A DNA stretch of 64,000 nucleotides from Ideonella sp. (lineage in GTDB: Bacteria > Pseudomonadota > Gammaproteobacteria > Burkholderiales > Burkholderiaceae_C). The translations under genes and the position numbers were made by a program. A model generated the notes under the pieces. It saw nothing but the letters and a program-made list of their open reading frames with translations, had not been told where the DNA came from and did no database searches. Positions 52,639-64,000 of the stretch are shown here, one piece after another. The stretch covers positions 3,032-67,031 of the forward strand of contig NZ_JBIKNQ010000013.1 of assembly GCF_044358605.1 (NCBI RefSeq), given 5' to 3'. Numbering within the stretch: the stretch's first letter is position 1; every line of letters begins with the position of its first letter.

Positions 52639-54495
52639 ATGTCTTGGGCTGGAAAACTTCTCCGCGTCAACCTGACCAACGGCACGGTGGCCTCTGAGCC
52701 GCTGCGCATGGATTGGGCCAAGCAATACCTGGGCTCGCGTGGCCTGGCGTCTAAATACCTGGTCGAAGAAATCGACCCCAAGGTCGACCCGCTGTCGCCC
52801 GACAACAAAATCATCTGGTCCACCGGCCCGCTGACCGGCACCATGGCCTCCACCGGCGGCCGCTACACCGTGGTCACCAAGGGCCCGCTGACAGGCGCCA
52901 TTGCCTGCTCCAACTCGGGCGGCTACTGGGGCGCCGAGCTGAAGATGGCCGGCTGGGACATGGTCATTTTTGAAGGCAAGTCACCCAAGCCGGTGTACCT
53001 GTCCATCGAAAACGATGTGGCCGAACTCAAAGACGCTTCGCACCTCTGGGGCAAGACGGTTTGGGACACTGAGAAAGCCATCAAGGCTGCTCACCAAGAC
53101 CCGCTGGCTCGGGTCTCCAGCATCGGTGGTGCTGGTGAGAACCTCGTGCTGTTCGCCGCTGTGGTGAACGACCTGCACCGTGCAGCCGGCCGCTCGGGCG
53201 TGGGCGCAGTGATGGGCAGCAAGAACCTGAAGGCGGTGGTGGTGCGTGGCACCAAGGGCGTGGGCAACTTGGTCAACCCCAAGGAGTTCATGCGCGTCAC
53301 GGCCGAGAAGAAGAAGATCTTGGCCGAGAACGGCGTCACTGGCGTGGGCCTGCCCGCCATGGGCACCCAGGTGCTGATGAGCGTGATCAACGAAGTGGGC
53401 GCCCTGCCCACCCGCAACCACCGCGATGTGCAGTTTGAAGGTGCAGGCGACATTGGCGCTGAAGCCATGGGCCGCCCCCGCACCGCACCGGGCAGCGACG
53501 GCAAGAAGCCCCTGGTCACCAACCAAGCCTGCTTTGGTTGCACCATTGCTTGCGGCCGCATTCAAAAGATCGACCAGAACCACTTTACCGTCGAGAACAA
53601 GCCGCAATACTGGGGTGCCTCTGGCGGCCTGGAGTACGAAGCGGCTTGGGCCCTGGGCGCTGCCAACGGCGTGAACGACCTGGACACCCTGCAATACGCC
53701 AACGTGCTGTGCAATGAGCACGGCATGGACCCCATCACCTTCGGCGCCACCATCGGCGCGGTGATGGAACTGTACGAAATGGGCGTGCTGACCAAAGAGC
53801 AAATTGGCATCGACGCCAAATTTGGCTCGGCCCAAGCGCTGGCTTACTTTGCCGAAATCACGGCCAAGGGCGAAGGCTTTGGCAAAGAGATCGGCCAGGG
53901 CTCTAAGCGCCTGACCGCCAAGTACGGCCACCCGGACCTGTCCATGTCGGTCAAGGGCCAAGAGTTCCCAGCCTACGACGGCCGTGGCATCCAAGGCATT
54001 GGCTTGGCTTATGCCACGTCCAACCGCGGTGCTTGCCACCTGCGCGGCTACACCATCGCCTCTGAGGTGCTGGGCATCCCTGTCAAGACCGACCCGTTGG
54101 AATCTAACGGCAAACCTGAGCTGGTTAAGGCCTTCCAAGACGCCACCGCCGCGTTTGACGCCGCCGGCGTGTGCATCTTCACCAGCTTTGCCTGGGGCTT
54201 GGCCGATGTGCAGCCGCAAGTGGCCGCCGCCTGCGGCGACGAGTTCACCCTGGAGAACTTGAACACCATCGGCGAGCGCATCTGGAACATGGAGCGTGAT
54301 TTCAACAACCGCGCTGGCTTCACCTCCAAAGATGACTCCCTGCCCAAGCGCCTGCTGACCGAGCCCGCCAAGACCGGCCCCGCCAAGGGCATGGTCAACA
54401 AGCTGGGCGAGATGCTGCCGATCTACTACGACATCCGTGGTTGGGACGCCGACGGCCAGCTCAAGCCAGAGACCCGCAGCCGTCTGGGTCTGTGA
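52639..54495 (+). CDS. aorB: tungsten-pterin aldehyde:ferredoxin oxidoreductase-family catalytic subunit (AorB type)
   Basis: MSWAGKLLRVNLTNG..., GSRGLASKYL, ACFGCTIACGR plus GACHLRG (4Fe-4S ligands); 618 aa. Confidence 0.9.
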   Translation: MSWAGKLLRVNLTNGTVASEPLRMDWAKQYLGSRGLASKYLVEEIDPKVDPLSPDNKIIWSTGPLTGTMASTGGRYTVVTKGPLTGAIACSNSGGYWGAELKMAGWDMVIFEGKSPKPVYLSIENDVAELKDASHLWGKTVWDTEKAIKAAHQDPLARVSSIGGAGENLVLFAAVVNDLHRAAGRSGVGAVMGSKNLKAVVVRGTKGVGNLVNPKEFMRVTAEKKKILAENGVTGVGLPAMGTQVLMSVINEVGALPTRNHRDVQFEGAGDIGAEAMGRPRTAPGSDGKKPLVTNQACFGCTIACGRIQKIDQNHFTVENKPQYWGASGGLEYEAAWALGAANGVNDLDTLQYANVLCNEHGMDPITFGATIGAVMELYEMGVLTKEQIGIDAKFGSAQALAYFAEITAKGEGFGKEIGQGSKRLTAKYGHPDLSMSVKGQEFPAYDGRGIQGIGLAYATSNRGACHLRGYTIASEVLGIPVKTDPLESNGKPELVKAFQDATAAFDAAGVCIFTSFAWGLADVQPQVAAACGDEFTLENLNTIGERIWNMERDFNNRAGFTSKDDSLPKRLLTEPAKTGPAKGMVNKLGEMLPIYYDIRGWDADGQLKPETRSRLGL

Positions 54496-54620
54496 GGGCT
54501 TGCTGAAGACCGCCACAGAGACACAGAGGCACAGAGAGAGAGAAGCCCAGGGCTTTGCTAGCTCAACCCGCTGGCGTCTCTGGCGGAGGGCCTTTGTGGC
54601 TGTGGCGTCAACCTGACCCC

Positions 54621-54647
54621 AAGGCGGTGCTGAGCACCGCCTTTTTT
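54621..54647 (+). terminator. strong rho-independent terminator inside the aor operon, between aorB and aorC
   Basis: AAGGCGGTGC-tga-GCACCGCCTT running into TTTTTT. It ends 16 nt before the aorC ATG. Confidence 0.7.
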
Positions 54648-54662
54648 CTGAGACCATTCACC

Positions 54663-56060
54663 ATGAAGCACGTCATCCTCGGTGCCGGCCCGGCCGGTGT
54701 CATTGCGGCCGAGACCCTCCGCAAGCACGCCCCCAACGACCAGATCGTGGTCATTGGCGACGAGCCCGAAGCGCCCTACTCCCGCATGGCCATTCCTTAC
54801 CTGCTGATTGGCAAGGTTGGTGAAGAAGGTACCCACCTGCGCCACACACCCGGCCACTTTGCCGCGCTGCGGGTGGAGCTGCGCCATGGCCGTGCCAAGG
54901 CGGTGGACATCACCGCCCGCGCCGTGGTGCTGGAAGACGGCAGCCGCGAGTCGTTTGACAAGCTGCTCATCTGCACCGGCTCTTCGCCCGTGCAGCCCCC
55001 CGTGCCCGGCATCACCGGCCCCGGCGTGCACACCTGCTGGACGCTGGAAGACGCTCGCGCCATCATGACCCTGGCCAAGCCGGGTGCGCGCGTGCTGCAG
55101 ATGGGTGCGGGCTTCATCGGCTGCATCATCATGGAGTCACTCGCCATGCGCGGCGTGCGGCTCAGCGTGGTGGAAATGGGCGACCGCATGGTGCCCCGCA
55201 TGATGGGCCCCACCGCCGGCCGCATGATCAAGCAATGGTGCGAAGCCAAGGGCGTGAAGGTCTATACCGGCGCGCGGGTGGATGCGATTGAGCGCGCGGG
55301 CAGCGCCGCCGCTGCGCCAGCACCGGCCGCCGCCGAGCCCGGCCTGCTCAGCAAGCTGGCCTCGGCCATCGGCCTGGGCAGCGCGCCAGCACCCGCCCCA
55401 GCACCCGCTGCGGCGGCGGGCAGCGCCAGCGGTGCGATGCAGGTCAAGCTCTCTACCGGGCAAGTGCTGGAAGCCGACTTGGTGATCTCCGCCACCGGCG
55501 TGCGGCCCAACATCGGCTTTCTGGAGAACAGCGGCATCACCTGCTTGGTGGGCATCCTGACCGACGAACACCTGCAAACCAATGTGCCCGGCATCTATGC
55601 GGCGGGCGATTGCGCCGAAGCCTTTGACAAGGTCAGCGGCAAGACCATCGTCAGCGCCATCCAGCCCAATGCCGCCGAGCAAGCCCGCGTGGCGGCCCTG
55701 AACATGGCAGGCCAAACCACCAGCCTGAAGGGCGTGACCCAGATCAACGTGCTGGACACGCTGGGCATGATCTCCGCCAGCTTTGGCAAATGGGACGGCG
55801 TGCCCGGCGGCCAGCATGTGGAGCTGACCGACGAGGCCAATGGCAAGCTCTTAAGCCTGCAGTTCGACCACGAAAAACTGGTGGGCTGCAACTCCATCGG
55901 CTGGACCGAGCATGTGGGCGTGATGCGCGGCCTGGTGGAAGGCGAAGTGAAACTGGGTGAGTGGCGCGAGAAGCTGATGGCCGACCCCACGCAGTTGATG
56001 AGCGCCTACCTGGCCACGGCCCAGGCCCAGAGTGCCCATGCGCACATCAAGCCTCGGTGA
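54663..56060 (+). CDS. aorC: FAD-dependent pyridine-nucleotide oxidoreductase subunit (AorC type)
   Basis: MKHVILGAGPAGVIAAE (FAD), QMGAGFIGCI (NAD), AAGDCAE. Start trimmed to ATG 54663. Confidence 0.85.
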   Translation: MKHVILGAGPAGVIAAETLRKHAPNDQIVVIGDEPEAPYSRMAIPYLLIGKVGEEGTHLRHTPGHFAALRVELRHGRAKAVDITARAVVLEDGSRESFDKLLICTGSSPVQPPVPGITGPGVHTCWTLEDARAIMTLAKPGARVLQMGAGFIGCIIMESLAMRGVRLSVVEMGDRMVPRMMGPTAGRMIKQWCEAKGVKVYTGARVDAIERAGSAAAAPAPAAAEPGLLSKLASAIGLGSAPAPAPAPAAAAGSASGAMQVKLSTGQVLEADLVISATGVRPNIGFLENSGITCLVGILTDEHLQTNVPGIYAAGDCAEAFDKVSGKTIVSAIQPNAAEQARVAALNMAGQTTSLKGVTQINVLDTLGMISASFGKWDGVPGGQHVELTDEANGKLLSLQFDHEKLVGCNSIGWTEHVGVMRGLVEGEVKLGEWREKLMADPTQLMSAYLATAQAQSAHAHIKPR

Positions 56061-56067
56061 TTGCACC

Positions 56068-56336
56068 TAGGGCCTGTTAACACTACGGCAAGGGGACGCG
56101 TTGTGAGTCAAAAAGGACGCAGGCAAGACGCAAACCGGAGCCGGGCTGCCCGCCCGGCGAGGATTTGCAACGCCGCATGCGCCCTTTTTGGCCACAACCC
56201 GAAGGGAAGCGGCGACTTGGGGTGCCCCTCGTCGTTGCAACGCTTGCCCGCACATCAGTGCGGGCGGCGCATTGCGCCTAGATGGGCACCCCAATTCACC
56301 GCTTCGCGCCCCTTGCCGAAGTGTTAACAGGCCCTA
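56068..56336. mobile_element. MITE-like element, family B (269 bp) with 28-bp terminal inverted repeats
   Basis: TAGGGCCTGTTAACACTACGGCAAGGGG at 56068-56095 matches the reverse complement of 56309-56336 at 27 of 28 positions. TA at both outer ends. Two long internal hairpins. Confidence 0.65.
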
Positions 56337-56346
56337 ACATCGCCGC

Positions 56347-56601
56347 ATGCAAATCACCTTCAAGCTCTTTGCCACGCTGACCGACTACCTGCCGGTCGAC
56401 AAGCGCAACAGCAACCAGATGGCCCTGGAGGTGGCCCCCGAGGCCACCATCCTGGGCATCATCGAGCCCTTTGGCGTGCCGCTCAAGCTGGTGCACTTGG
56501 TGCTGGTCAACGGCACCTATGTCCCGCCCGAAGAGCGCGCCAGCCGCACCCTGCAAGAGGGCGACGTCCTCGCCATCTGGCCGCCCATTGCGGGTGGGTG
56601 A
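56347..56601 (+). CDS. aorD: MoaD/ThiS-family sulfur-carrier-like protein (AorD position)
   Basis: 84 aa, MQITFKLFATL..., C-terminal ...PPIAGG. Confidence 0.8.
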   Translation: MQITFKLFATLTDYLPVDKRNSNQMALEVAPEATILGIIEPFGVPLKLVHLVLVNGTYVPPEERASRTLQEGDVLAIWPPIAGG

Positions 56602-56607
56602 GGCTGA

Positions 56608-56907
56608 GTGCCCACGATCCCAGAAACCTTCAGCCGCGACACCGGCGGCACCCCCGCCGACTGGCTGCGTTGGCTGCCCGGCGCCTGCCGTAAGCACGCC
56701 CTAAGCCTGCCCACCGAGCACAGCGCCATCGTCACGATTGGCCAAGGCTCGCTCCACCTGCACTGGGACGTGCTCCCCCCTCGCGCCCTGGGCCTAGCCC
56801 GCTTTCCTCACCTGATGGTGAGCTATCGGTTTGAAGGCGTGGGCGAGTCTGAACGCGAGACGTTCATGCGCTATTTCGACCTGTATATGCAGCGGGGTGG
56901 AGGCTGA
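56608..56907 (+). CDS. small conserved-looking hypothetical protein, last gene of the aor cluster
   Basis: GTG start 56608, 99 aa, no motif recognised. Coding assumed from position and codon bias. Confidence 0.5.
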   Translation: MPTIPETFSRDTGGTPADWLRWLPGACRKHALSLPTEHSAIVTIGQGSLHLHWDVLPPRALGLARFPHLMVSYRFEGVGESERETFMRYFDLYMQRGGG

Positions 56908-56916
56908 CCGCAGCCC

Positions 56917-58305
56917 TTAGACGGCCAAGCGGCACACCTGCTCACCCAGCCTCGTCAGATGCTCGTCCAAGGCCTTCAGGCACACCGGCCAGTCAGCTGA
57001 GAAGCGTGTATCCAAGGCCAAGTTCGCACGCCAATCCAAAGCCAAACTCAGCGCCTGGTGCCATACCGCATTGGGCACCGCAGCCCGCAGCGCACTGCGT
57101 GGCAACTCTGTTGGCAAGCCCCCGCCGCTGCGCGGTGCCAAGCCCATGGGCAACATGTCATAGGCCGGTGCCAAAGAATAGGGCTTGCCCACATCCGACA
57201 TGAATGAGAGGTTGCCGTGGTGCATGTCGGTGTTGCCGATCAGCGTGCCATAGGCATAAAGCAGACAGGCACGGTCTGCCGCCTCGCGGGTGATGAGCCC
57301 AGCCTGAGCCAAGCGGGCCGCCAACACCGGCCAAGGCGACGTGGCGTCTCCCAGGAATTCAGCTTCCAGCGCAGCCAGTGAGAACAGCGCATGGCGCCCG
57401 CGTGGGCCTACACGGTCAAAGCGCTCCACCTCCAAGAAGCGCTGATGCCCCTGGTCGATCACCGTGCTGGCGGCCGCGGCAATGCCCGCCCGCCGCAAGG
57501 TCTGCAAAGCATGGTGTTCGGCCAGCAGCAAATCTCGCCAACGTCGACTGACAGGGTGGTCCTCAAGCACGCTGAACTTCACCAGCACATGCCGGGACTT
57601 GGCCGTTTCATCCTCGGCATAAGCCAAAAACTTGGGTTGCTCGCCGCCTGCGGACGACGCCGGCAATTCGCCACGTGCGGCCTGCTCTGACATGCGCGCA
57701 TAGGCCACAGCCCTGTCCGCCAAGCGCACCGCTACAGGCTCGGCTGCGCTGACGAAGGCATCGCGCATGGCTTCGCCCAGCAGCAAATTACCCGGAGCAT
57801 CTTGTCCGTGGCGCAACAGGGCTTGCAAGGCTTGCGTCTCACCCCAATCCGAGAGTGACGCAGGCAGACCCAAGGCAGGCGCAACTTGCACCGCATAGGC
57901 GCGGCCCAGGTAGCCCTGGGGCAGCATGTCTTGCATCCACCAAGGCAGGCCTTCGCTGTACGTGGCACTCAACCTGCCCCCTCGCACGCTTGGGGCCGCC
58001 ACCTCAAACACCCAGCCCTGCGGGCGAACCGGGCACAGGCGGCCGAGGTCGGAAGCGCGCCCCTGGGCATCCACCTGAAACACGGCCATGTCGGGCAGGC
58101 CCCGACCTTTATCACGCACCGCGTAGTGAATAGACACCCCAGCACCCGTGCGCAGCACCTCCCCCCCCATGGCCGCCAAAGCGCGCGACAAGGTGGGCTG
58201 GCTCACTCCAAGGCCTTGGGCCAATGCCGCCCCTGTGCAAGGCCCCGCCTTCAGCGCCTGGCGAATCGCTAGGGCCTGCTCTGCAAGTCGAGATGGGCGG
58301 GCCAT
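56917..58305 (-). CDS. HipA-family Ser/Thr kinase with a fused N-terminal HTH domain (YjjJ/HipH type)
   Basis: N-terminal GAALAQGLGVSQPTLSRAL. Kinase motifs SSAGGEQPKF, GNTDMHHGNLSF, APAYDMLPM. No separate HipB-like gene is adjacent. Confidence 0.8.
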   Translation of the reverse strand: MARPSRLAEQALAIRQALKAGPCTGAALAQGLGVSQPTLSRALAAMGGEVLRTGAGVSIHYAVRDKGRGLPDMAVFQVDAQGRASDLGRLCPVRPQGWVFEVAAPSVRGGRLSATYSEGLPWWMQDMLPQGYLGRAYAVQVAPALGLPASLSDWGETQALQALLRHGQDAPGNLLLGEAMRDAFVSAAEPVAVRLADRAVAYARMSEQAARGELPASSAGGEQPKFLAYAEDETAKSRHVLVKFSVLEDHPVSRRWRDLLLAEHHALQTLRRAGIAAAASTVIDQGHQRFLEVERFDRVGPRGRHALFSLAALEAEFLGDATSPWPVLAARLAQAGLITREAADRACLLYAYGTLIGNTDMHHGNLSFMSDVGKPYSLAPAYDMLPMGLAPRSGGGLPTELPRSALRAAVPNAVWHQALSLALDWRANLALDTRFSADWPVCLKALDEHLTRLGEQVCRLAV

Positions 58306-58548: not shown

Positions 58549-59739
58549 ATGCCACCTCGTCCGCCGGACTATCTTGCCGTCATCGCCAGCCCTTGCTTTT
58601 CTTGCGGGGTGACGCTGGTCATCGACATGCTTTTGCTGCTGGGTGTGCGGGTGGACTTCATCAACCACAGCACGCGCGCACCACACCCTTATTGGCGCCA
58701 ACGCGCCGATGGACGCTGGGAGTTGAGTGCGGCGGGCAAGGGCCACTTTGGCTTTCATTCCAAGCTGGCCAGCAAGCAAGAGAGTTTTGACTTCCCCGAG
58801 GGCCGCGCGGTGCTGATCGGCCACAACCCGGCCATGGTGCGCTACCTAGCCCCCAGCACCCGCGCGGTGATGGTGGTGCGTGACCCGGTGGATGCCATTT
58901 ACTCGTGGCAGCGGCGGCAAAACGTGGCCGCCTCGGGCATCACGTTTGAGGAGTACCTGCAGCAGGTGCTGTACTTCAACGTGCACAAGCCCTATGGCAT
59001 TTTTCAGTCCACGCCGCTGGAACTGTATGCCCTGTTTTGCGCCTTCTGGCTCAGCGCGGCGGGTGAATGCCATGTGATGGGCTATGAAGACTTCAAGGCG
59101 GGGCCTGAGCCCTTTGTGGACCTGATGGCCTATCTGGGCGTGCCGGTGGCCGCTGCCGAGGTGCACGCCGCCTTTGCCCGCGTAGAGTCAGGCAGCGAAG
59201 CCCCGGCCCGCATCGAGCAATACCAGCTCTGCAACCTCAAGGGCCAACCGCGCGAGTGGACGCAGCGCATGGCCGCCAGCGAGCACGCTGCTCTCCTGGC
59301 CGGGCCACTCAAGCAAGCGGTCTATGGCCTGCTGGGCTACAGCAGCCACGCCACCGACTGGGCTGCGGCCACCCAAGCGCCCGGCCAAAGCTATGGCCTG
59401 ATCAGCGGGCTGATGGACGCCCTGGGCCAGCAGCTCAGCGACGAGCGAGACCCGGTGCCGGTGCACACGGCCATGGAGTTGACGCTGCAGACATTCAAAG
59501 ACGAGTTCCAGCGCCATGTGCCCTCGCGCACCGCCGAGCTCTACACCCTGCCCGCCATCGAGCACGACTGCACCCAGGCCTTCAGGGCCGTGACCCGCTT
59601 TGTGCGCGAGGTCTACACCGCCCAAGACCAGATCCCCTTCTGGCGCCTGCGCAATCTCACGCTGCAACTCACCGGCCTGATCGCCAACAGCGCTGGCAAC
59701 CCGAACGTGCGGCACATGGTGGCCGAACGCTTGATCTGA
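58549..59739 (+). CDS. sulfotransferase-fold protein with a C-terminal extension of about 170 aa; candidate group transferase of the downstream pathway
   Basis: 3'-phosphate-binding-like motif VMVVRDPVDAIYSWQRR. Degenerate 5'-PSB-like loop VIASPCFSCGVTLV. Start uncertain (ATG 58549 or GTG 58480). Confidence 0.55.
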   Translation: MPPRPPDYLAVIASPCFSCGVTLVIDMLLLLGVRVDFINHSTRAPHPYWRQRADGRWELSAAGKGHFGFHSKLASKQESFDFPEGRAVLIGHNPAMVRYLAPSTRAVMVVRDPVDAIYSWQRRQNVAASGITFEEYLQQVLYFNVHKPYGIFQSTPLELYALFCAFWLSAAGECHVMGYEDFKAGPEPFVDLMAYLGVPVAAAEVHAAFARVESGSEAPARIEQYQLCNLKGQPREWTQRMAASEHAALLAGPLKQAVYGLLGYSSHATDWAAATQAPGQSYGLISGLMDALGQQLSDERDPVPVHTAMELTLQTFKDEFQRHVPSRTAELYTLPAIEHDCTQAFRAVTRFVREVYTAQDQIPFWRLRNLTLQLTGLIANSAGNPNVRHMVAERLI

Positions 59740-59741
59740 GC

Positions 59742-60299
59742 ATGGCTGCCGCTGCTTCATCCCTTCCCCCACCTGGCCGCGTGGTCTGGATCACCGGGCT
59801 CTCGGGCGCGGGCAAGTCCACGCTGGCTGAAGCCCTGGTTTCCACCCTGCGTGGCGCGGGCGAGCCGGTGGTGATGCTGGACGGCGATGCGCTGCGCGAG
59901 GTGTTTGGCGCGGTGGATGCCCAGCACCATGGCCGAGCAGCCCGCCTAGGCTTGGCCCTGCGCTATGCCCAGCTCTGCAAGACCCTGGCCGACCAGGGCG
60001 TGACCGTCGTCATCGCCACCATCTCGCTGTTCACCGAGGTGCATGCCTGGAACCGCCAGCACCTGCCCGGCTATGTGGAGGTGCTGCTGGACGTGCCGCT
60101 GGCCGAGCTGCGCCGCCGTGACCCCAAAGGCATTTACCGCCGCTTTGATGCGGGCGAGCTGCAGGACGTGGCGGGGCTGGACCTAGCTGTAGACCTGCCC
60201 AGCGCACCCCACCTGCACCTTCTACACGACCCAGCGCGCCCCATCAGTGCGCTGGTTGATGCCGTCATTCAACACCTTCACACAAGGACCTCACCATGA
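59742..60299 (+). CDS. adenylylsulfate-kinase-fold nucleotide 3'-kinase (CysC / Cj1415-like)
   Basis: WITGLSGAGKSTLA, MLDGDALR, VEVLLDVPLAELRRRDPKGIYRRF; 185 aa. ATG lies 2 nt after the upstream stop. Confidence 0.85.
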   Translation: MAAAASSLPPPGRVVWITGLSGAGKSTLAEALVSTLRGAGEPVVMLDGDALREVFGAVDAQHHGRAARLGLALRYAQLCKTLADQGVTVVIATISLFTEVHAWNRQHLPGYVEVLLDVPLAELRRRDPKGIYRRFDAGELQDVAGLDLAVDLPSAPHLHLLHDPARPISALVDAVIQHLHTRTSP

Positions 60300-61114
60300 C
60301 CATGGCCACCACCACCGAGCGCCCCGCCACCGTGTCCACCGCCCTGCGCGCGGGCGACTTCACCGGCTTGGCGCAAGACTATTCACAACACCGGCCGGAC
60401 TATGCGCCCTCGGTGCTGCAAGGCCTGCTGGGCCTGTTGGGCAAGCCCGTGGCCGAGGTGGACTTTGCCGACGTGGGTGCGGGCACCGGCATCTGGACCC
60501 GCCAGGTGCAAGCCAGCGGCGTGCGCTGCGCCACCGCTGTGGAGCCCAACACCGACATGCGCACCCACGGCCAAGTGGCCAGCGCCCACACCCCCATCCG
60601 CTGGCTGCAAGGCAGTGCCGAGCAGACCGGCCTGGCCAGCGCCAGCGCCGACTGGTTGACCATGGCCTCCAGCTTTCACTGGGCACAGTTTGAGGTCGCC
60701 ACGGGCGAGTTCCACCGGGTGCTACGCCCGGGAGGCCGCTTCACCGCGCTGTGGAACCCGCGCCTGATCGAGGTCAACCCCCTGCTGGTGGAGATCGAAG
60801 CCCACCTGAGCACCCTGCGCAGCGACATCAAGCGCGTGTCCTCGGGCCGCTCGGGCATCACCGAAACCCTCTCGGAGCAGCTCTGGGCCTCGCCGCACTT
60901 TGAAGACGTGGTCTACCTGGAGGGCCGCCATGTGATCAGCATGACCCCAGCCCGCTACCTGGGCGCCTGGCGTTCGGTCAATGACCTGCGCGTGCAACTG
61001 GGGGCCGACAAGTTCGAAGCCTTCTTGGCCTATGTGGAAGAGCGCATCCGAGGCCAGGCCAGCATTGAAGCCACCTACCTGACCCGGGCCTGGTCGGCCC
61101 GCCGCAAAGGCTGA
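60296..61114 (+). CDS. class I SAM-dependent methyltransferase
   Basis: Motif I DVGAGTGIWT, later LRPGGRF. ATGA overlap with the kinase gene. Confidence 0.85.
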   Translation: MTMATTTERPATVSTALRAGDFTGLAQDYSQHRPDYAPSVLQGLLGLLGKPVAEVDFADVGAGTGIWTRQVQASGVRCATAVEPNTDMRTHGQVASAHTPIRWLQGSAEQTGLASASADWLTMASSFHWAQFEVATGEFHRVLRPGGRFTALWNPRLIEVNPLLVEIEAHLSTLRSDIKRVSSGRSGITETLSEQLWASPHFEDVVYLEGRHVISMTPARYLGAWRSVNDLRVQLGADKFEAFLAYVEERIRGQASIEATYLTRAWSARRKG

Positions 61115-61118
61115 GCCC

Positions 61119-63434
61119 ATGCGCCCGATGTTCTCCACTAAGGCTGGCACCCTGGCCGCGCTGCAGGGCACGCTGCGCAGCGCCCGCATAGCACCCCTGT
61201 GCGTGTTCACCGTGCAGCAATGGCGGGAGAGCCCCACGCAGTGCCTGGCCTGGATCGGAGCCCAAGCGGGCCAAGGCCCGTGGATCGTGCGCTCTAGCTG
61301 CCTACAGGAAGACAGCCAAACCGCGTCCAACGCTGGGGCTTACTTGTCGGTGCCGCAGGTGACGGCGGCCACGCTGGCCGCGTCCATCAACCAAGTGATC
61401 GCGTCCTACGGCCAGCCGCAAGCAGCCGACGAGGTGCTGGTTCAGCCCATGCTGCAAGCAGTGCTGCGCTCGGGCGTGGCCTTCTCGCACGACCCCAACA
61501 CCCAAGCCCCTTACCGCGTGGTGAACTGGTCCGAAGGCAGCGACACCGCCCAGGTGACCGGCGGCGCCGGTGGCCGCATGTTTGTGCAAGCGGCGCAAAG
61601 CCCCGTGGCCCCGCCACCTGAGCTGGCCCCCGTGCTGGGCTTGGTGGACGAACTGTTGAGCCTTCTTGAAGGCGCCCCGTTGGACTGTGAATTTGCTGTT
61701 ACGCGTGATGGCGCTGACGAGCAGCTGTGGCTGCTGCAAGCCCGCCCCCTGGTGCTGGCCCAAGCGCCGGAGACGGATGCCCAGCAAGCCGAGCGCCTGG
61801 CGCGCATTCAGCAGCAGGTGCAGCGCGGCATGCAGCCCCACCCCTTTTTGATGGGCCAGCGCACGGTGTATGGCGTGATGCCCGACTGGAACCCAGCCGA
61901 GATCGTCGGCATCCGGCCTAAGCCACTGGCGCTGTCGCTCTACCGCGAGCTGGTCACCGACTCCATCTGGGCCTATCAGCGCCACAACTACGGCTACCGC
62001 AATCTGCGCAGCTTTCCGCTGATGCCGCATTTCTACGGCCTGCCCTATGTGGATGTGCGGCTGTCCTTCAACTCCTTCATCCCGGCCGACCTGGACGACG
62101 CCTTGGCCGGGCGCTTGGTGGACCACTACATCAACCGCTTGCTGGCCGAGCCCAAGCTGCATGACAAAGTGGAGTTTGAGATCGTCTTCTCTTGCTACAC
62201 CCTAGATTTACCCCAGCGCCTGGAGCGCCTGGCCGAAGCCGGCTTCAGCGCGGCAGAGCGCGAAACCATTGCCAACAGCCTGCGCCAGTTGACCAACCGC
62301 ATCGTCCACCCGCAAGACGGGCTGTGGCGCAGCGACGCGGCCAAGCTGGACACCCTGAAGGCCCGCCGCGAAGCGCTGATGGCGTCCAACGCCGACCCGC
62401 TGGAGCGCATCCACTGGCTGCTGGAAGACGGCAAGCGCTATGGCACCCTGCCCTTTGCAGGCCTGGCGCGCGCAGGCTTTGTGGCCGTGCAAATGCTCAA
62501 GTCTCTGGTGGCGGTGGGCGTGTTCTCGCCCGCCGACTACGAGGCCTTCATTGCCAGCGTGTCCACCGTCAGCGGCCAGTTGGCCCATGACCAAGCCACG
62601 CTGCACAAAGACGATTTCTTGGCACGATACGGCCACCTGCGCCCAGGCACCTACGACATCCTCTCGCCCCGCTATGACGAGCAGCCTGAGTTGTACTTTG
62701 ACTGGAGCCAACGCCCGGCCGCGCCGCGCGCCAGCACGCCGTTTTCGGTGACGCTGCCGCAAATGCGCGAGGTGGTGAAGATGCTGCAAGCCCACGGCCT
62801 GCAGCCCGACCCTGTCGGCCTGTTCGACTTCTTACAGGCCGGTATCGAGCTGCGCGAGTTGGCCAAGTTCCACTTCACCCGCAATCTCTCAGACGCCATA
62901 AAGCTGATGGTCCAAGTGGGCGAGCCCCTGGGCTTCAGCCGCGACGACTTGGCCTTTTGCGACATCAGCGCCTTCAAAGAGCTGCACATGGGAGCGGCCG
63001 ATCCGCGCGAGGTGCTGGGCCGCAGCATCGCCCAGGGCCGCGAGCGCTATGCGCAGACGCTGAAGGTCTCGCTGCCGCCGCTGATTGCCAGGCCGGACGA
63101 TGTGTGGTCTTTTGAGATGCCAGAGACCGCGCCCAACTTCATCACCCAAGGCCAGGTCACCGCCGAAGTGGCCACCTGCACCGACCGCAGCAAACTGGCC
63201 GGGGCCATTGTCTGCATCCCCAATGCCGACCCCGGCTTTGATTGGCTGTTCGCCTACCCCATTGCGGGCCTGATCACCGCCTGGGGTGGCGCCAACTCCC
63301 ACATGGCCATCCGCGCGGGCGAGCTGGGCCTGCCCGCCGTGATTGGCGCCGGTGAAGTGATGTACAAACACTGGGCAGGCAGCCGCCGCGTGCACATGGA
63401 CTGCGCGGGGCGCCGTGTGGAGATGATCAATTGA
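61119..63434 (+). CDS. PEP/pyruvate-binding (ATP-grasp) plus C-terminal swivel-histidine phosphotransferase lacking a TIM-barrel domain; candidate L-glutamine kinase (Cj1418-like)
   Basis: 771 aa. N-terminal FSTKAGTLAALQG...WIVRSSCLQED. C-terminal mobile domain GGANSH(728)MAIRAGELGLPAVIGAG. Confidence 0.7.
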   Translation: MRPMFSTKAGTLAALQGTLRSARIAPLCVFTVQQWRESPTQCLAWIGAQAGQGPWIVRSSCLQEDSQTASNAGAYLSVPQVTAATLAASINQVIASYGQPQAADEVLVQPMLQAVLRSGVAFSHDPNTQAPYRVVNWSEGSDTAQVTGGAGGRMFVQAAQSPVAPPPELAPVLGLVDELLSLLEGAPLDCEFAVTRDGADEQLWLLQARPLVLAQAPETDAQQAERLARIQQQVQRGMQPHPFLMGQRTVYGVMPDWNPAEIVGIRPKPLALSLYRELVTDSIWAYQRHNYGYRNLRSFPLMPHFYGLPYVDVRLSFNSFIPADLDDALAGRLVDHYINRLLAEPKLHDKVEFEIVFSCYTLDLPQRLERLAEAGFSAAERETIANSLRQLTNRIVHPQDGLWRSDAAKLDTLKARREALMASNADPLERIHWLLEDGKRYGTLPFAGLARAGFVAVQMLKSLVAVGVFSPADYEAFIASVSTVSGQLAHDQATLHKDDFLARYGHLRPGTYDILSPRYDEQPELYFDWSQRPAAPRASTPFSVTLPQMREVVKMLQAHGLQPDPVGLFDFLQAGIELRELAKFHFTRNLSDAIKLMVQVGEPLGFSRDDLAFCDISAFKELHMGAADPREVLGRSIAQGRERYAQTLKVSLPPLIARPDDVWSFEMPETAPNFITQGQVTAEVATCTDRSKLAGAIVCIPNADPGFDWLFAYPIAGLITAWGGANSHMAIRAGELGLPAVIGAGEVMYKHWAGSRRVHMDCAGRRVEMIN

Positions 63435-64000
63435 AAATTGCAGTGAGCCAGCGGGTCGACCACTGGCCCGACCGGCCCGAAACCCGCGACGCCCTGGACC
63501 AAGACCTGATCGAGTTTTTGGTGACGGCCGGGGCCTTGCCCCTGCCGGTGAGCAACCGGCTCATCTTCTGCGGCCAAGCCTTGGCGCAATGGTTAGAGGC
63601 CCTGCAGCCAGACGCCGTGCTGCTGAGTGGCGGCAATGACATTGGCCGGGTGCGCGAGCGCGACCTGACCGAGCAGGCCTTGCTGGCCTATGCCCAGTAC
63701 CACCGCCTGCCCGTGCTGGGCCTGTGCCGGGGCATGCAAATGCTGGCGCATTGGGCGGGCACACCGTTGCGCAAGGTGGAGGGCCATGTGGCCAGCACCC
63801 ACCAGCTACACGGTCGCCTGAGCGGCAGCGTCAACAGCTTTCACACCCAAGCCTTGGCCGAATGCCCGCCCGGCTTTGAGGTGCTGGCCCACAGCGAAGA
63901 TGGCGTGATCGAGGCCATTCAGCATCTGGACCTGCCGTGGCAGGGCTGGATGTGGCATCCCGAGCGCTGCCATCCCTTTGAGGCCAGCGACATACAGCGG
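63431..64000 (+). CDS. class-I glutamine amidotransferase / peptidase C26 gamma-glutamyl hydrolase family protein (Cj1417-like), truncated by the window end
   Basis: Own translation, since the gene runs off the window: LKIAVSQRVDHW...LPVLGLCRGMQMLAHW...GWMWHPER. TTG 63431 overlaps the upstream stop; GTG 63443 is an alternative start. Confidence 0.75.
   Translation, partial: MKIAVSQRVDHWPDRPETRDALDQDLIEFLVTAGALPLPVSNRLIFCGQALAQWLEALQPDAVLLSGGNDIGRVRERDLTEQALLAYAQYHRLPVLGLCRGMQMLAHWAGTPLRKVEGHVASTHQLHGRLSGSVNSFHTQALAECPPGFEVLAHSEDGVIEAIQHLDLPWQGWMWHPERCHPFEASDIQR

What the first reader, a model, noticed from the sequence alone, without database searches (positions are those of the whole stretch)
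58549..64000. Candidate phosphoramidate (P-N) donor pathway of the Campylobacter MeOPN type in a beta-proteobacterial chromosome
Five co-directional genes are packed with gaps of 0-4 nt or overlaps (ATGA at 60296-60299; TTG/TGA overlap at 63431-63434).
- A sulfotransferase-fold protein.
- A 185-aa APS-kinase fold (GLSGAGKST, LDGD, RDPKGIY).
- A SAM methyltransferase (DVGAGTG).
- A 771-aa ATP-grasp plus swivel-His protein (GGANSH728MAIRAGELGLPAVIG) with no PEP/pyruvate TIM barrel.
- A class-I amidotransferase/C26 hydrolase (LGLCRGMQML, WHPE).
The same unusual set of folds makes the O-methyl-phosphoramidate donor in Campylobacter jejuni capsule loci. There, Cj1418 is an L-glutamine kinase of the PPDK/PEP-synthase family, Cj1416 a cytidylyltransferase, and Cj1417 a gamma-glutamyl-CDP-amidate hydrolase of the GATase family. 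Cj1415 is a CDP-amidate 3'-kinase homologous to APS kinase, and Cj1419/1420 are methyltransferases. An ordinary sulfation cluster would explain the kinase and the sulfotransferase fold, but not the glutamine-kinase-like and C26-like genes. No glycosyltransferase or capsule-export gene is in the window, so the acceptor may not be a capsule sugar. The cluster sits next to a HipA-type kinase and a tungsten enzyme operon. To my knowledge this chemistry has been characterised only in Campylobacter.
Basis: partly seen in the sequence, partly recalled or inferred. Interest (0 to 1): 0.9.

Follow-up and report, generated by a model that had tools for sequence, protein, structure and literature searches.

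The report
Campylobacter-type phosphoramidate operon in Ideonella
Six tightly packed genes in this Ideonella (beta-proteobacterial) contig encode the four-enzyme route that Campylobacter uses to build an activated phosphorus-nitrogen group for its surface sugars, plus a methyltransferase and a sulfotransferase-like enzyme that probably attaches it. The same gene set occurs in hundreds of species, so it is not a Campylobacter speciality.

Summary
An identical public contig (L001) runs past the window end. It completes the cut-off fifth gene and adds the predicted sixth gene, a cytidylyltransferase-type NTP transferase.

I recovered a Campylobacter capsule locus (L092) with a published cj1416 primer and compared it directly.
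- The 771-aa protein falls in the same NCBIfam family as Cj1418 and is 44% identical over the available C-terminus.
- The small kinase falls in the Cj1415 subfamily (38% identical) and fails the true APS-kinase model.
- The NTP transferase is 35% identical to Cj1416 over its full length.
- The amidotransferase's best family match is Cj1417 (29% identical).

The four genes plus the methyltransferase co-occur in about 80-85 of 88 related loci across more than ten phyla, and they are sometimes fused. No ATP sulfurylase was seen.

The first gene belongs to a small sulfotransferase-fold family. It keeps the 3'-phosphate motif, lacks the catalytic lysine, and always sits beside this module. In relatives it lies directly after wzm-wzt O-antigen exporter genes. 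It is the likely phosphoramidyl transferase; this step is inferred.

The acceptor in Ideonella is unknown. The locus is a genuine, uncharacterised relative of a known pathway, and its novelty lies in the output side.

The parts
58549..59739 (+). A: 396-aa sulfotransferase-fold protein, the candidate phosphoramidyl transferase (inferred)
   Evidence: - Pfam gives only a sub-threshold Sulfotransfer_1 hit.
- A single-sequence search finds only itself and one 29%-identical relative. A profile search finds 67 relatives, most carrying Pfam Sulfotransfer_1.
- The family profile hits solved SULTs, TEG12, Teg14 and StaL.
- In the AF2 model residues 1-276 are confident, and the top Foldseek hits are all PAPS sulfotransferases.
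- Conserved positions: His92, R111-D-P-x-D-A..S119..R123, E180-D-x-K183 and N229. The lysine of the PKxGTT loop is absent.
- Every family member examined sits beside the B-F module.
59742..60299 (+). B: 185-aa Cj1415-type kinase (predicted cytidine diphosphoramidate 3'-kinase)
   Evidence: - NF004041 193.4 bits (cut-off 127); TIGR00455 apsK 97.5 bits, below its cut-off of 138.7.
- 38% identical to the Campylobacter Cj1415-type protein, E 5e-42. That protein scores 292.9 bits on NF004041.
- Present in 85 of 88 D-containing loci and fused to D in some lineages.
60296..61114 (+). C: 272-aa class-I SAM methyltransferase (predicted O-methylation of the phosphoramidate)
   Evidence: - Methyltransf_11/25.
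- A C-like methyltransferase is present in 73 of 88 loci, often 55-64% identical and inside the module.
- Homology to Cj1419/Cj1420 was not tested.
61119..63434 (+). D: 771-aa Cj1418-type kinase (predicted L-glutamine kinase) with an ATP-grasp domain, a central helical domain and a swivel domain carrying His728
   Evidence: - NF004508 994.9 bits (cut-off 501).
- 44% identical to the Cj1418-type C-terminus in L092, which hits the same model.
- G723, G724, N726, S727, H728 and M729 are invariant in the family.
- AF2 model pLDDT 92. The best full-length structural match is rifampin phosphotransferase 5hv1, E 2.7e-21.
- JGI names a 75%-identical homologue 'glutamine kinase'.
63431..64000 (+). E: class-I glutamine amidotransferase-fold hydrolase, cut by the window end (201 aa in full; predicted gamma-glutamyl-CDP-amidate hydrolase). 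Gene F follows just outside the window.
   Evidence: - The best NCBIfam hit is NF045546, gamma-glutamyl-CDP-amidate hydrolase, at 95 bits. This is below the equivalog cut-off of 250, and the next family scores 55.
- 29% identical to the Campylobacter Cj1417-type protein, E 1e-24, with the Cys and His-x-Glu motifs aligned.
- F is 244 aa, lies at L001 7776-8510 (which would be window 64033-64767), and is 35% identical to the Cj1416-type protein, E 1e-54.

Best explanation
This is a six-gene operon, A-B-C-D-E-F, with F just past the window end. It makes and uses an activated phosphoramidate donor by the route established for Campylobacter jejuni O-methyl phosphoramidate (MeOPN).

Steps 1-4 are supported by homology and synteny.
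1. D is an ATP-grasp enzyme with swivel His728. [quoted passage not shown]
2. F condenses L-glutamine phosphate with CTP to give CDP-L-glutamine.
3. E, with a Cys-His-Glu amidotransferase fold, hydrolyses off glutamate and leaves cytidine diphosphoramidate.
4. B phosphorylates its 3'-hydroxyl to give 3'-phospho-cytidine-5'-diphosphoramidate, a PAPS look-alike.

Steps 5-6 are inferred.
5. A is a sulfotransferase-fold protein that keeps the 3'-phosphate-binding motif but lacks the sulfuryl-transfer lysine. It transfers the phosphoramidyl group to a hydroxyl of an acceptor and releases cytidine 3',5'-bisphosphate.
6. C O-methylates the group. The order of steps 5 and 6 is unknown.

The acceptor in Ideonella is not identifiable from the window. 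By analogy with related loci it is most likely a cell-surface glycan, for example the non-reducing end of an O-polysaccharide.
For: Family membership
- D: NF004508 994.9 bits (cut-off 501).
- B: NF004041 193.4 bits (cut-off 127), but below the apsK equivalog cut-off.
- E: best hit NF045546.

Direct comparison with a Campylobacter capsule locus (L092)
- L092 was fetched with primer CS-350 from PMC3907429.
- It has 28% G+C and the gene order Cj1418-1417-1416-1415-kpsC. Its Cj1417-type protein scores 328.5 bits on NF045546, and a Capsule_synth protein follows.
- Identities: D 44% over the 140 aligned C-terminal residues, E 29%, F 35% over full length, B 38%.

Co-occurrence and fusions
- In 88 D-containing loci, B-like genes occur in 85, F-like in 83, E-like in 80 and C-like in 73.
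- Fusions B::D, F::D and E::D exist.
- IMG names for a locus whose D is 75% identical (L088): cytidine diphosphoramidate kinase, N5-(cytidine 5'-diphosphoramidyl)-L-glutamine hydrolase, L-glutamine-phosphate cytidylyltransferase and, glutamine kinase.
- A CysQ-type 3'(2'),5'-bisphosphate nucleotidase lies inside or beside the module in about 10-11 loci. This fits a 3',5'-bisphosphonucleotide by-product.

Protein A
- Sulfotransferase family and fold, with motifs as.
- All seven A-family loci examined adjoin the module.
- In an unbiased set of 80 genomes, about 30 carry a sulfotransferase-domain ORF touching the module.

Other points
- The D model has the three-domain rifampin-phosphotransferase architecture.
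- No ATP sulfurylase appears in any annotated related locus. No polysaccharide or CysQ genes were found in the window.
Against: - There are no biochemical data for any non-Campylobacter member.
- Identities to the Campylobacter enzymes are only 29-44%. Only the last 144 residues of the Cj1418-type protein could be compared.
- E scores well below the NF045546 equivalog cut-off (95 bits against 250).
- A's own Pfam hit is sub-threshold. Its Foldseek TM-scores are low (0.32-0.47), and its C-terminal 120 residues are modelled poorly.
- The missing PSB-loop lysine could equally mean an inactive or differently specialised sulfotransferase.
- C was not compared with Cj1419/Cj1420, nor A with Cj1421/Cj1422.
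- No acceptor, glycosyltransferase, exporter or CysQ gene is in the 64-kb window.
- No promoter or terminator signal delimits the operon.
Confidence: 0.72

Rival explanations
1. This is an ordinary sulfation cluster. B is an APS kinase making PAPS, A is a PAPS-dependent sulfotransferase, and the other genes are unrelated neighbours.
For: B has the APS_kinase Pfam domain and hits solved APS kinases at about 1e-21. A belongs to a sulfotransferase family. NCBI names B 'adenylyl-sulfate kinase'.
Against: - B fails the apsK equivalog cut-off and falls in the Cj1415 subfamily.
- No ATP sulfurylase appears in any annotated locus.
- B is bound to D, E and F in 80-85 of 88 loci and is fused to D in some.
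- The A family lacks the PSB-loop lysine.
- This reading does not explain D, E or F.
Confidence: 0.03
2. B-F make the phosphoramidate donor as proposed, but A is not the phosphoramidyl transferase. Either A is a true sulfotransferase that modifies the same acceptor with sulfate, or the transfer is done by an enzyme encoded elsewhere.
For: - A's role rests only on fold, motifs and adjacency.
- Other loci carry TagF-like Glyphos_transf proteins in that place, so a CDP-donor transferase of another fold is a plausible alternative.
- The Pseudomonas cassette has an unrelated 388-aa protein in the first position.
Against: - The A family is found only next to the module in every case examined.
- Sulfotransferase-domain ORFs touch the module in about 30 of 80 unbiased loci, with no PAPS-synthesis genes nearby.
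- The 3'-phosphate motif is kept while the lysine used for sulfuryl transfer is lost.
- The donor is a 3'-phosphonucleotide, the kind of donor this fold binds.
Confidence: 0.15
3. The module makes a P-N compound with a different fate. For example, it makes a soluble phosphoramidate natural product, or D phosphorylates an amide other than glutamine. It would then not be a surface-glycan decoration.
For: - The Ideonella and Pseudomonas glycinae cassettes stand alone, with no glycan genes nearby.
- E is below the Cj1417 equivalog threshold.
- P-N natural products exist (PMC6429109).
Against: - In most related loci the module is embedded in polysaccharide, O-antigen or flagellin-glycosylation gene sets.
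- The D family is very strongly conserved, with 55 invariant columns across 54 sequences. This argues for one common substrate.
Confidence: 0.1

Closest known systems
Campylobacter jejuni MeOPN biosynthesis genes cj1415-cj1418, with methyltransferases cj1419/cj1420 and transferases cj1421/cj1422
   Same: - The same four enzyme families are present. The transcription order D-E-F matches Cj1418-1417-1416, and a methyltransferase lies directly upstream of the glutamine-kinase gene.
- Family models are shared: NF004508, NF004041, and NF045546 as best hit.
- Identities are 29-44%.
   Different: - The locus is not in a capsule locus, and no kps or glycosyltransferase genes are in the window.
- The kinase gene sits upstream of the methyltransferase instead of at the operon end.
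- Only one methyltransferase is present.
- The candidate transferase is a 396-aa single-domain sulfotransferase-fold protein. Its relation to Cj1421/Cj1422 could not be tested.
- The host is a beta-proteobacterium.
PAPS-dependent sulfation (APS kinase CysC, sulfotransferases, CysQ)
   Same: The logic is the same. A 5'-activated group sits on a nucleotide that is then 3'-phosphorylated by an APS-kinase-fold enzyme. A sulfotransferase-fold enzyme with a conserved 3'-phosphate motif uses the donor. In some related loci a CysQ-type bisphosphate nucleotidase is present.
   Different: There is no ATP sulfurylase. B fails the apsK equivalog. The A family lacks the PSB-loop lysine. The donor is predicted to be cytidine-based and to carry P-NH2 instead of sulfate.
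Rifampin phosphotransferase (RPH) and the PEP synthase/PPDK superfamily
   Same: D has the three-domain architecture of an ATP-grasp domain, a central helical substrate domain and a swivel phosphohistidine domain. The best structural match is 5hv1, E 2.7e-21.
   Different: Identity is 15-17%. D scores 28 bits on the RPH model NF041857 (cut-off 999). D has no PEP/pyruvate TIM barrel.
E. coli O9a WbdD methyl-phosphate cap recognised by the Wzt carbohydrate-binding module
   Same: In four related loci the A-like gene and the module follow wzm and a wzt carrying Wzt_C directly. A methylated phosphoryl-type group would be a close chemical analogue of the O9a methyl-phosphate chain terminator (PMC3482155, PMC9445017).
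   Different: No WbdD-like kinase-methyltransferase is involved. The link is purely contextual, and wzm/wzt are absent from the Ideonella window.
Phosphoramide group on the Xanthomonas campestris lipooligosaccharide core
   Same: It is a P-N substituent on a surface glycan of a non-Campylobacter Gram-negative bacterium (PMC8042644, citing Silipo et al. 2005).
   Different: It is unmethylated and its genes are not assigned. I did not test whether Xanthomonas carries this module.

Membership tests
MeOPN-type phosphoramidate donor pathway (Cj1415-Cj1418) | A Cj1418-family kinase with an ATP-grasp domain, a swivel catalytic His, and no PEP/pyruvate domain | tested here: met
   - NF004508 994.9 bits (cut-off 501). 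The Campylobacter Cj1418-type C-terminus hits the same model.
- 44% identical over the 140 aligned C-terminal residues.
- His728 is invariant.
- Only the C-terminal 144 residues of the Campylobacter protein were available.
MeOPN-type phosphoramidate donor pathway (Cj1415-Cj1418) | A Cj1416-type CTP:phosphoglutamine cytidylyltransferase encoded alongside | tested here: met
   F lies at L001 7776-8510 and overlaps E by 4 nt. It is 35% identical to the Cj1416-type protein over 251 aligned columns, E 1e-54. It is present in 83 of 88 loci. No dedicated NCBIfam model exists for it.
MeOPN-type phosphoramidate donor pathway (Cj1415-Cj1418) | A Cj1417-type gamma-glutamyl-CDP-amidate hydrolase (class-I GATase fold, Cys-His-Glu) | tested here: inconclusive
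   NF045546 is the best hit by 40 bits, but at 95 bits it is below the equivalog cut-off of 250. E is 29% identical to the Cj1417-type protein, E 1e-24, with the catalytic motifs aligned. This shows homology and matching context but not equivalog-level similarity.
MeOPN-type phosphoramidate donor pathway (Cj1415-Cj1418) | A Cj1415-type cytidine diphosphoramidate kinase, distinct from CysC | tested here: met
   B scores 193.4 bits on NF004041 (cut-off 127). The Cj1415-type protein scores 292.9 bits on the same model. Both fall below TIGR00455. They are 38% identical, E 5e-42.
MeOPN-type phosphoramidate donor pathway (Cj1415-Cj1418) | Methyltransferase homologous to Cj1419/Cj1420 | not tested
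   A SAM methyltransferase is present and conserved in the module. The Cj1419/Cj1420 sequences could not be obtained because L092 ends inside the Cj1418-type gene.
MeOPN-type phosphoramidate donor pathway (Cj1415-Cj1418) | Transferase homologous to Cj1421/Cj1422 | not tested
   No Cj1421/Cj1422 sequences were available. Here A, a sulfotransferase-fold protein, is the candidate.
MeOPN-type phosphoramidate donor pathway (Cj1415-Cj1418) | The enzyme activities and a P-N product in the cell | not testable with these tools
   This needs enzymology and 31P-NMR or MS.
Adenylyl-sulfate kinase (CysC, TIGR00455 equivalog) | Score above the curated equivalog cut-off, and association with ATP sulfurylase | tested here: not met
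   B scores 97.5 bits against a cut-off of 138.7. No ATP-sulfurylase Pfam family appears in any annotated locus.
PAPS-dependent sulfotransferases | The sulfotransferase fold with the 3'-phosphate-binding motif (RxPxDxxxS) | tested here: met
   - Family members pass the Pfam Sulfotransfer_1 cut-off.
- The profile hits solved SULTs at 6e-5, with VRDPVDAIYS aligned to VRNPKDTAVS.
- The top Foldseek hits are all sulfotransferases.
- R111, D112 and S119 are invariant.
PAPS-dependent sulfotransferases | The 5'-phosphosulfate-binding loop PKxGTT with its catalytic lysine | tested here: not met
   The loop position reads SPCFSCGVT in A and SPREPCGATW in the family consensus. Neither has a lysine. The alignment to the canonical loop is by inspection, not by a structure-based alignment.
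Rifampin phosphotransferase | Membership of the rph equivalog | tested here: not met
   D scores 28.4 bits on NF041857 (cut-off 999). Only the architecture is shared.
PEP synthase / pyruvate phosphate dikinase | A C-terminal PEP/pyruvate-binding TIM barrel | tested here: not met
   There is no such Pfam domain. PEP-synthase models match only the swivel domain.

The most novel reading that the evidence does not exclude
Sulfotransferase-fold proteins such as A are a previously unrecognised class of phosphoramidyl transferases. They would use 3'-phospho-cytidine-5'-diphosphoramidate the way sulfotransferases use PAPS. Methyl-phosphoramidate would then be a widespread surface-glycan decoration across more than ten bacterial phyla. 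In many Gram-negatives it would serve as the chain-terminating cap read by the Wzt carbohydrate-binding module of ABC-transporter O-antigen export.
Probability: 0.4. Interest if true: 0.75.

Novelty: new variant of a known kind. Interest (0 to 1): 0.62.

Why it matters
Reviews in the searchable literature describe O-methyl phosphoramidate as found only in Campylobacter and its glutamine kinase as C. jejuni-specific (PMC6429109, PMC9561416). The only exception I found is a structure-based prediction for archaeal Borg elements (10.1101/2024.11.05.622173).

This locus and its relatives show that the complete donor module is common in environmental, plant-associated and gut bacteria. Biological P-N chemistry on cell surfaces is therefore probably much more widespread than documented.

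The finding also gives a concrete, testable candidate for the still-uncharacterised transfer step, namely a sulfotransferase-fold enzyme. And it points to tractable organisms in which to study the step, such as Pseudomonas, Azospirillum and Anaerotruncus colihominis.

If the link to O-antigen capping holds, it adds a new terminator chemistry to the Wzm/Wzt pathway. It would also add a new epitope relevant to phage and immune recognition.

Tried and rejected
- Fetching the primary Raushel papers (PMC5629633, PMC5938751, PMC5938747, PMC6643271): none is held. The enzymology of Cj1415-1418 is therefore cited through reviews and from established knowledge.
- Searching solved structures by sequence: no Cj1415-1418 structure was found.
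- Reaching Cj1418 through the representative search plus cluster-name look-ups of AT-rich hits: no names were returned.
- Scanning genome contigs with a family alignment: no Campylobacter was among the best 80 loci.
- A tblastn search of plasmids: 14 generic hits and no Campylobacter.
- What finally worked was an exact search of metagenome contigs with a published cj1416-region primer. The locus held stops inside the Cj1418-type gene, so Cj1419-1422 and most of Cj1418 remain uncompared.
- The promoter and terminator scan was uninformative.
- The first gene of the Pseudomonas cassette is unrelated to A.
- I considered and rejected a plain sulfation cluster, a PpsA or rifampin-phosphotransferase identity for D, and a C. 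difficile-type CDP-activated phospho-amino-acid system. The last lacks the amidotransferase and the 3'-kinase.

Full report
**1. The observation**

Five co-directional ORFs occupy 58549-64000 on the + strand.
- A: 58549-59739, 396 aa.
- B: 59742-60299, 185 aa.
- C: 60296-61114, 272 aa.
- D: 61119-63434, 771 aa.
- E: 63431 to beyond 64000.

The junctions are a 2-nt gap, an ATGA overlap, a 4-nt gap and a TTGA overlap.

Pfam gives APS_kinase for B, Methyltransf_11 for C, and PPDK_N plus the PEP-utilizers swivel domain with no PEP/pyruvate barrel for D. It gives Peptidase_C26/GATase for E and only a sub-threshold Sulfotransfer_1 hit for A.

G+C is 63-68% throughout, like the flanks. Identical proteins are named Ideonella sp. 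by NCBI.

**2. What lies beyond the window**

A public contig (L001) matches the window with 0 mismatches over 7743 nt and runs 3.8 kb further.
- On it E is complete at 201 aa.
- A sixth gene, F (244 aa, NTP_transferase), overlaps E by 4 nt.
- A DUF2330 secreted protein and an RnfD-like membrane protein follow after a 67-nt gap. They are not conserved partners.

**3. Are these the Campylobacter enzymes?**

NCBIfam places the proteins as follows.
- D scores 994.9 bits on NF004508 (cut-off 501). It scores 28 bits on the rifampin-phosphotransferase model and at most 52 bits on PEP-synthase models.
- B scores 193.4 bits on NF004041 (cut-off 127) but falls below the apsK equivalog TIGR00455 (97.5 bits against 138.7).
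- E's best hit is NF045546, gamma-glutamyl-CDP-amidate hydrolase, at 95 bits. The next family scores 55, and the equivalog cut-off is 250.

To anchor these models I needed real Campylobacter sequences. A 24-nt primer for the cj1416 region, published in PMC3907429, matched one metagenome contig, L092.
- L092 has 28% G+C.
- It encodes, in order, the C-terminus of a Cj1418-type protein, a 200-aa protein, a 253-aa protein, a 170-aa protein and a KpsC-type Capsule_synth protein. This is the arrangement of the C. jejuni capsule locus.
- The 200-aa protein scores 328.5 bits on NF045546.
- The 170-aa kinase scores 292.9 bits on NF004041 and only 126 bits on TIGR00455.
- The Cj1418-type fragment scores 197 bits on NF004508.

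Pairwise identities to the Ideonella proteins:
- E: 29%, E 1e-24.
- F: 35% over full length, E 1e-54.
- B: 38%, E 5e-42.
- D residues 628-767: 44%, E 5e-39.

B and the Cj1415-type protein share departures from canonical APS kinases. Both have LDGDxLRE in place of LDGDNxRxG, and TISxF in place of ISP.

**4. The module is conserved and widespread**

- D has more than 6600 word-sharing homologues. Some are about 75% identical in Pseudomonas, Thiobacillus and Accumulibacter.
- 1552 clusters at the 50% level match at E below 1e-30.
They span Proteobacteria, Acidobacteriota, Gemmatimonadales, Planctomycetota, Chlamydiales, Nitrospina, Obscuribacterales, Paenibacillus and Anaerotruncus/Oscillospiraceae.
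- In 88 loci, B-like genes accompany D in 85, F-like in 83, E-like in 80 and C-like methyltransferases in 73.
- B::D, F::D and E::D fusion proteins exist.
- IMG gives a locus whose D is 75% identical the four MeOPN-pathway enzyme names plus a 3'(2'),5'-bisphosphate nucleotidase. Such CysQ-type genes sit in or beside the module in about 10-11 loci. This is the expected housekeeping for a 3',5'-bisphosphonucleotide by-product.
- No ATP sulfurylase appears in any annotated locus.

**5. Protein D**

The AF2 model is confident (pLDDT 92). Its only full-length structural relatives are Listeria rifampin phosphotransferase structures (E 2.7e-21, 15-17% identity). D therefore has an ATP-grasp domain, a central helical substrate domain and a swivel-His domain. 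It resembles the antibiotic kinase in architecture but belongs to the Cj1418 sequence family.

**6. Protein A**

Searched alone, A is nearly an orphan. A three-sequence profile retrieves 67 proteins of 330-400 aa, most with Pfam Sulfotransfer_1.
- The profile hits solved SULTs, TEG12, Teg14 and StaL. RDPVDAIYS aligns to the RNPKDTAVS 3'-phosphate motif, YED to YEE, and N-x-KG to RKG.
- Family-wide invariants are R111, D112, S119, R123, E180 and N229, with H92 nearly invariant. The position of the PKxGTT loop carries no lysine.
- The AF2 model is confident for residues 1-276, and its top Foldseek hits are all PAPS sulfotransferases. TM-scores are modest, at 0.32-0.47.
- Every A-family locus I examined adjoins the module.
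- In four of the five metagenomic loci the order is wzm - wzt (with Wzt_C) - A-like - B - C - D - E - F, followed by methyltransferases and glycosyltransferases.
- In the 80 genome loci chosen only for D similarity, about 30 carry a more distant sulfotransferase-domain ORF touching the module. Pfam confirmed this in 15 of the 16 I sampled.
- Six others carry a TagF-like Glyphos_transf instead. Four of these six (L008, L009, L012, L057) share one TagF-like type, and in L009 the module lies directly after flgK and flagellin genes.

**7. Mechanism**

Steps 1-4 follow from homology to the characterised Campylobacter enzymes. Their chemistry is summarised in PMC6429109 and in the preprint 10.1101/2024.11.05.622173, which cite Taylor et al. 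2017-2018.
1. D converts Gln to Gln-phosphate.
2. F forms CDP-Gln.
3. E releases CDP-amidate.
4. B forms 3'-phospho-CDP-amidate.

Step 5, phosphoramidyl transfer by A, and step 6, O-methylation by C, are inferences. They rest on fold, motifs and conserved adjacency.

The acceptor in Ideonella is unknown. A tblastn search with wzm, wzt, glycosyltransferase, Wzy, rml, CysQ and TagF-like queries found nothing relevant in the window.

**8. Comparison and novelty**

The donor half is a new member of the known MeOPN pathway. The output side differs in four ways.
- It is a stand-alone cassette outside any capsule locus.
- The kinase gene has been moved.
- Only one methyltransferase is present.
- The candidate transferase has a sulfotransferase fold.

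In the library I could search, nobody describes this module in bacteria other than Campylobacter. Reviews call MeOPN and the glutamine kinase Campylobacter-specific. A phosphoramide on Xanthomonas LOS is known chemically.

One caveat applies. The primary Raushel papers were not readable, so they may mention homologues.

**9. Verdict**

Confidence is about 0.8 for the donor pathway and about 0.5-0.55 for A as the transferase. Interest is moderate to high. The locus is not unique, but it exposes a widespread, unstudied P-N surface chemistry and gives a testable candidate for the missing transfer enzyme.

Noticed in passing
L089 6892-15104; L091 6898-15273; L093 6915-15103; L094 6916-15108: In four metagenomic loci the A-like sulfotransferase gene starts inside the stop region of wzt (ABC_tran plus Wzt_C), directly after wzm. 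The B-C-D-E-F module, extra methyltransferases and GT2 genes follow. This suggests that methyl-phosphoramidate is a chain-terminating O-antigen cap.
   Followed up: partly
Proteins P0127, P0140, P0172, P0195 (B::D); P0222, P0228, P0237 and others (F::D); P0234 (E::D); 40 of 88 loci such as L016 9098-12175: Natural fusions join the Cj1415-type kinase, the cytidylyltransferase or the amidotransferase to the N-terminus of the glutamine-kinase-type protein.
   Followed up: partly
L088 10961-11773; L074 6267-7007; about 10-11 loci in all: An inositol-monophosphatase/CysQ-family gene lies inside or beside the module. IMG names it 3'(2'),5'-bisphosphate nucleotidase. This fits removal of a cytidine 3',5'-bisphosphate by-product.
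   Followed up: partly
L009 6387-13498 and 16459-17538 (Pseudomonas sp. LjRoot71); TagF-like ORFs of the same type in L008, L012 and L057: The D-E-F genes lie directly after flgK and a flagellin gene, with a TagF-like Glyphos_transf gene nearby. This may be a phosphoramidate-type decoration of a flagellin glycan.
   Followed up: no
L061 5581-9109 and L076 5537-9065 (Anaerotruncus colihominis): Two tandem ORFs of 570-610 aa, each with a C-terminal Sulfotransfer_3 domain, sit inside the module of a human gut Firmicute. Their size and tandem arrangement recall Cj1421/Cj1422, which I could not compare.
   Followed up: no
L052 2790-5564 (Paenibacillus kobensis): A 925-aa ORF fuses an AMP-binding (adenylating) domain to a sulfotransferase domain, directly upstream of the module.
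   Followed up: no
window 52639-56907: A tungsten-type aldehyde:ferredoxin oxidoreductase (AFOR_N/AFOR_C) is followed by a pyridine-nucleotide-disulfide oxidoreductase, a ThiS/MoaD-like 84-aa protein and a 99-aa ORF with no family. They look like one operon unrelated to the finding.
   Followed up: partly
window 56917-58305 (-): A HipA_C kinase gene is divergent from gene A. The longest ORF is 462 aa, but public gene calls give 417 aa. No hipB-like partner was looked for.
   Followed up: no
L001 8578-11221 (would be window 64835-67478): A DUF2330 protein with a signal-peptide-like N-terminus and an RnfD/NqrB-like membrane protein follow the operon after a 67-nt gap. They are not conserved next to the module in other genomes.
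   Followed up: partly
Plasmid records NC_016588.1, NZ_CP029835.1, NZ_CP140104.1, NZ_AP023281.1, NZ_CP016951.1 and others: D homologues (34-53% identical) lie on large plasmids or chromids of Azospirillum, Vibrio alfacsensis, Agrobacterium vitis and Cupriavidus taiwanensis. All carry generic annotations such as 'PEP-utilizing enzyme'.
   Followed up: no
L093 11427-13758: In this locus the D homologue is called as two genes of 573 and 208 aa. This is either a frameshift (pseudogene) or an assembly error.
   Followed up: no
L002/L003 7460-8626 (Pseudomonas glycinae group): The first position of an otherwise identical cassette holds a 388-aa protein that is unrelated to A and matches no Pfam or NCBIfam family. 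Its C-terminus looks TagF-like by eye only.
   Followed up: partly
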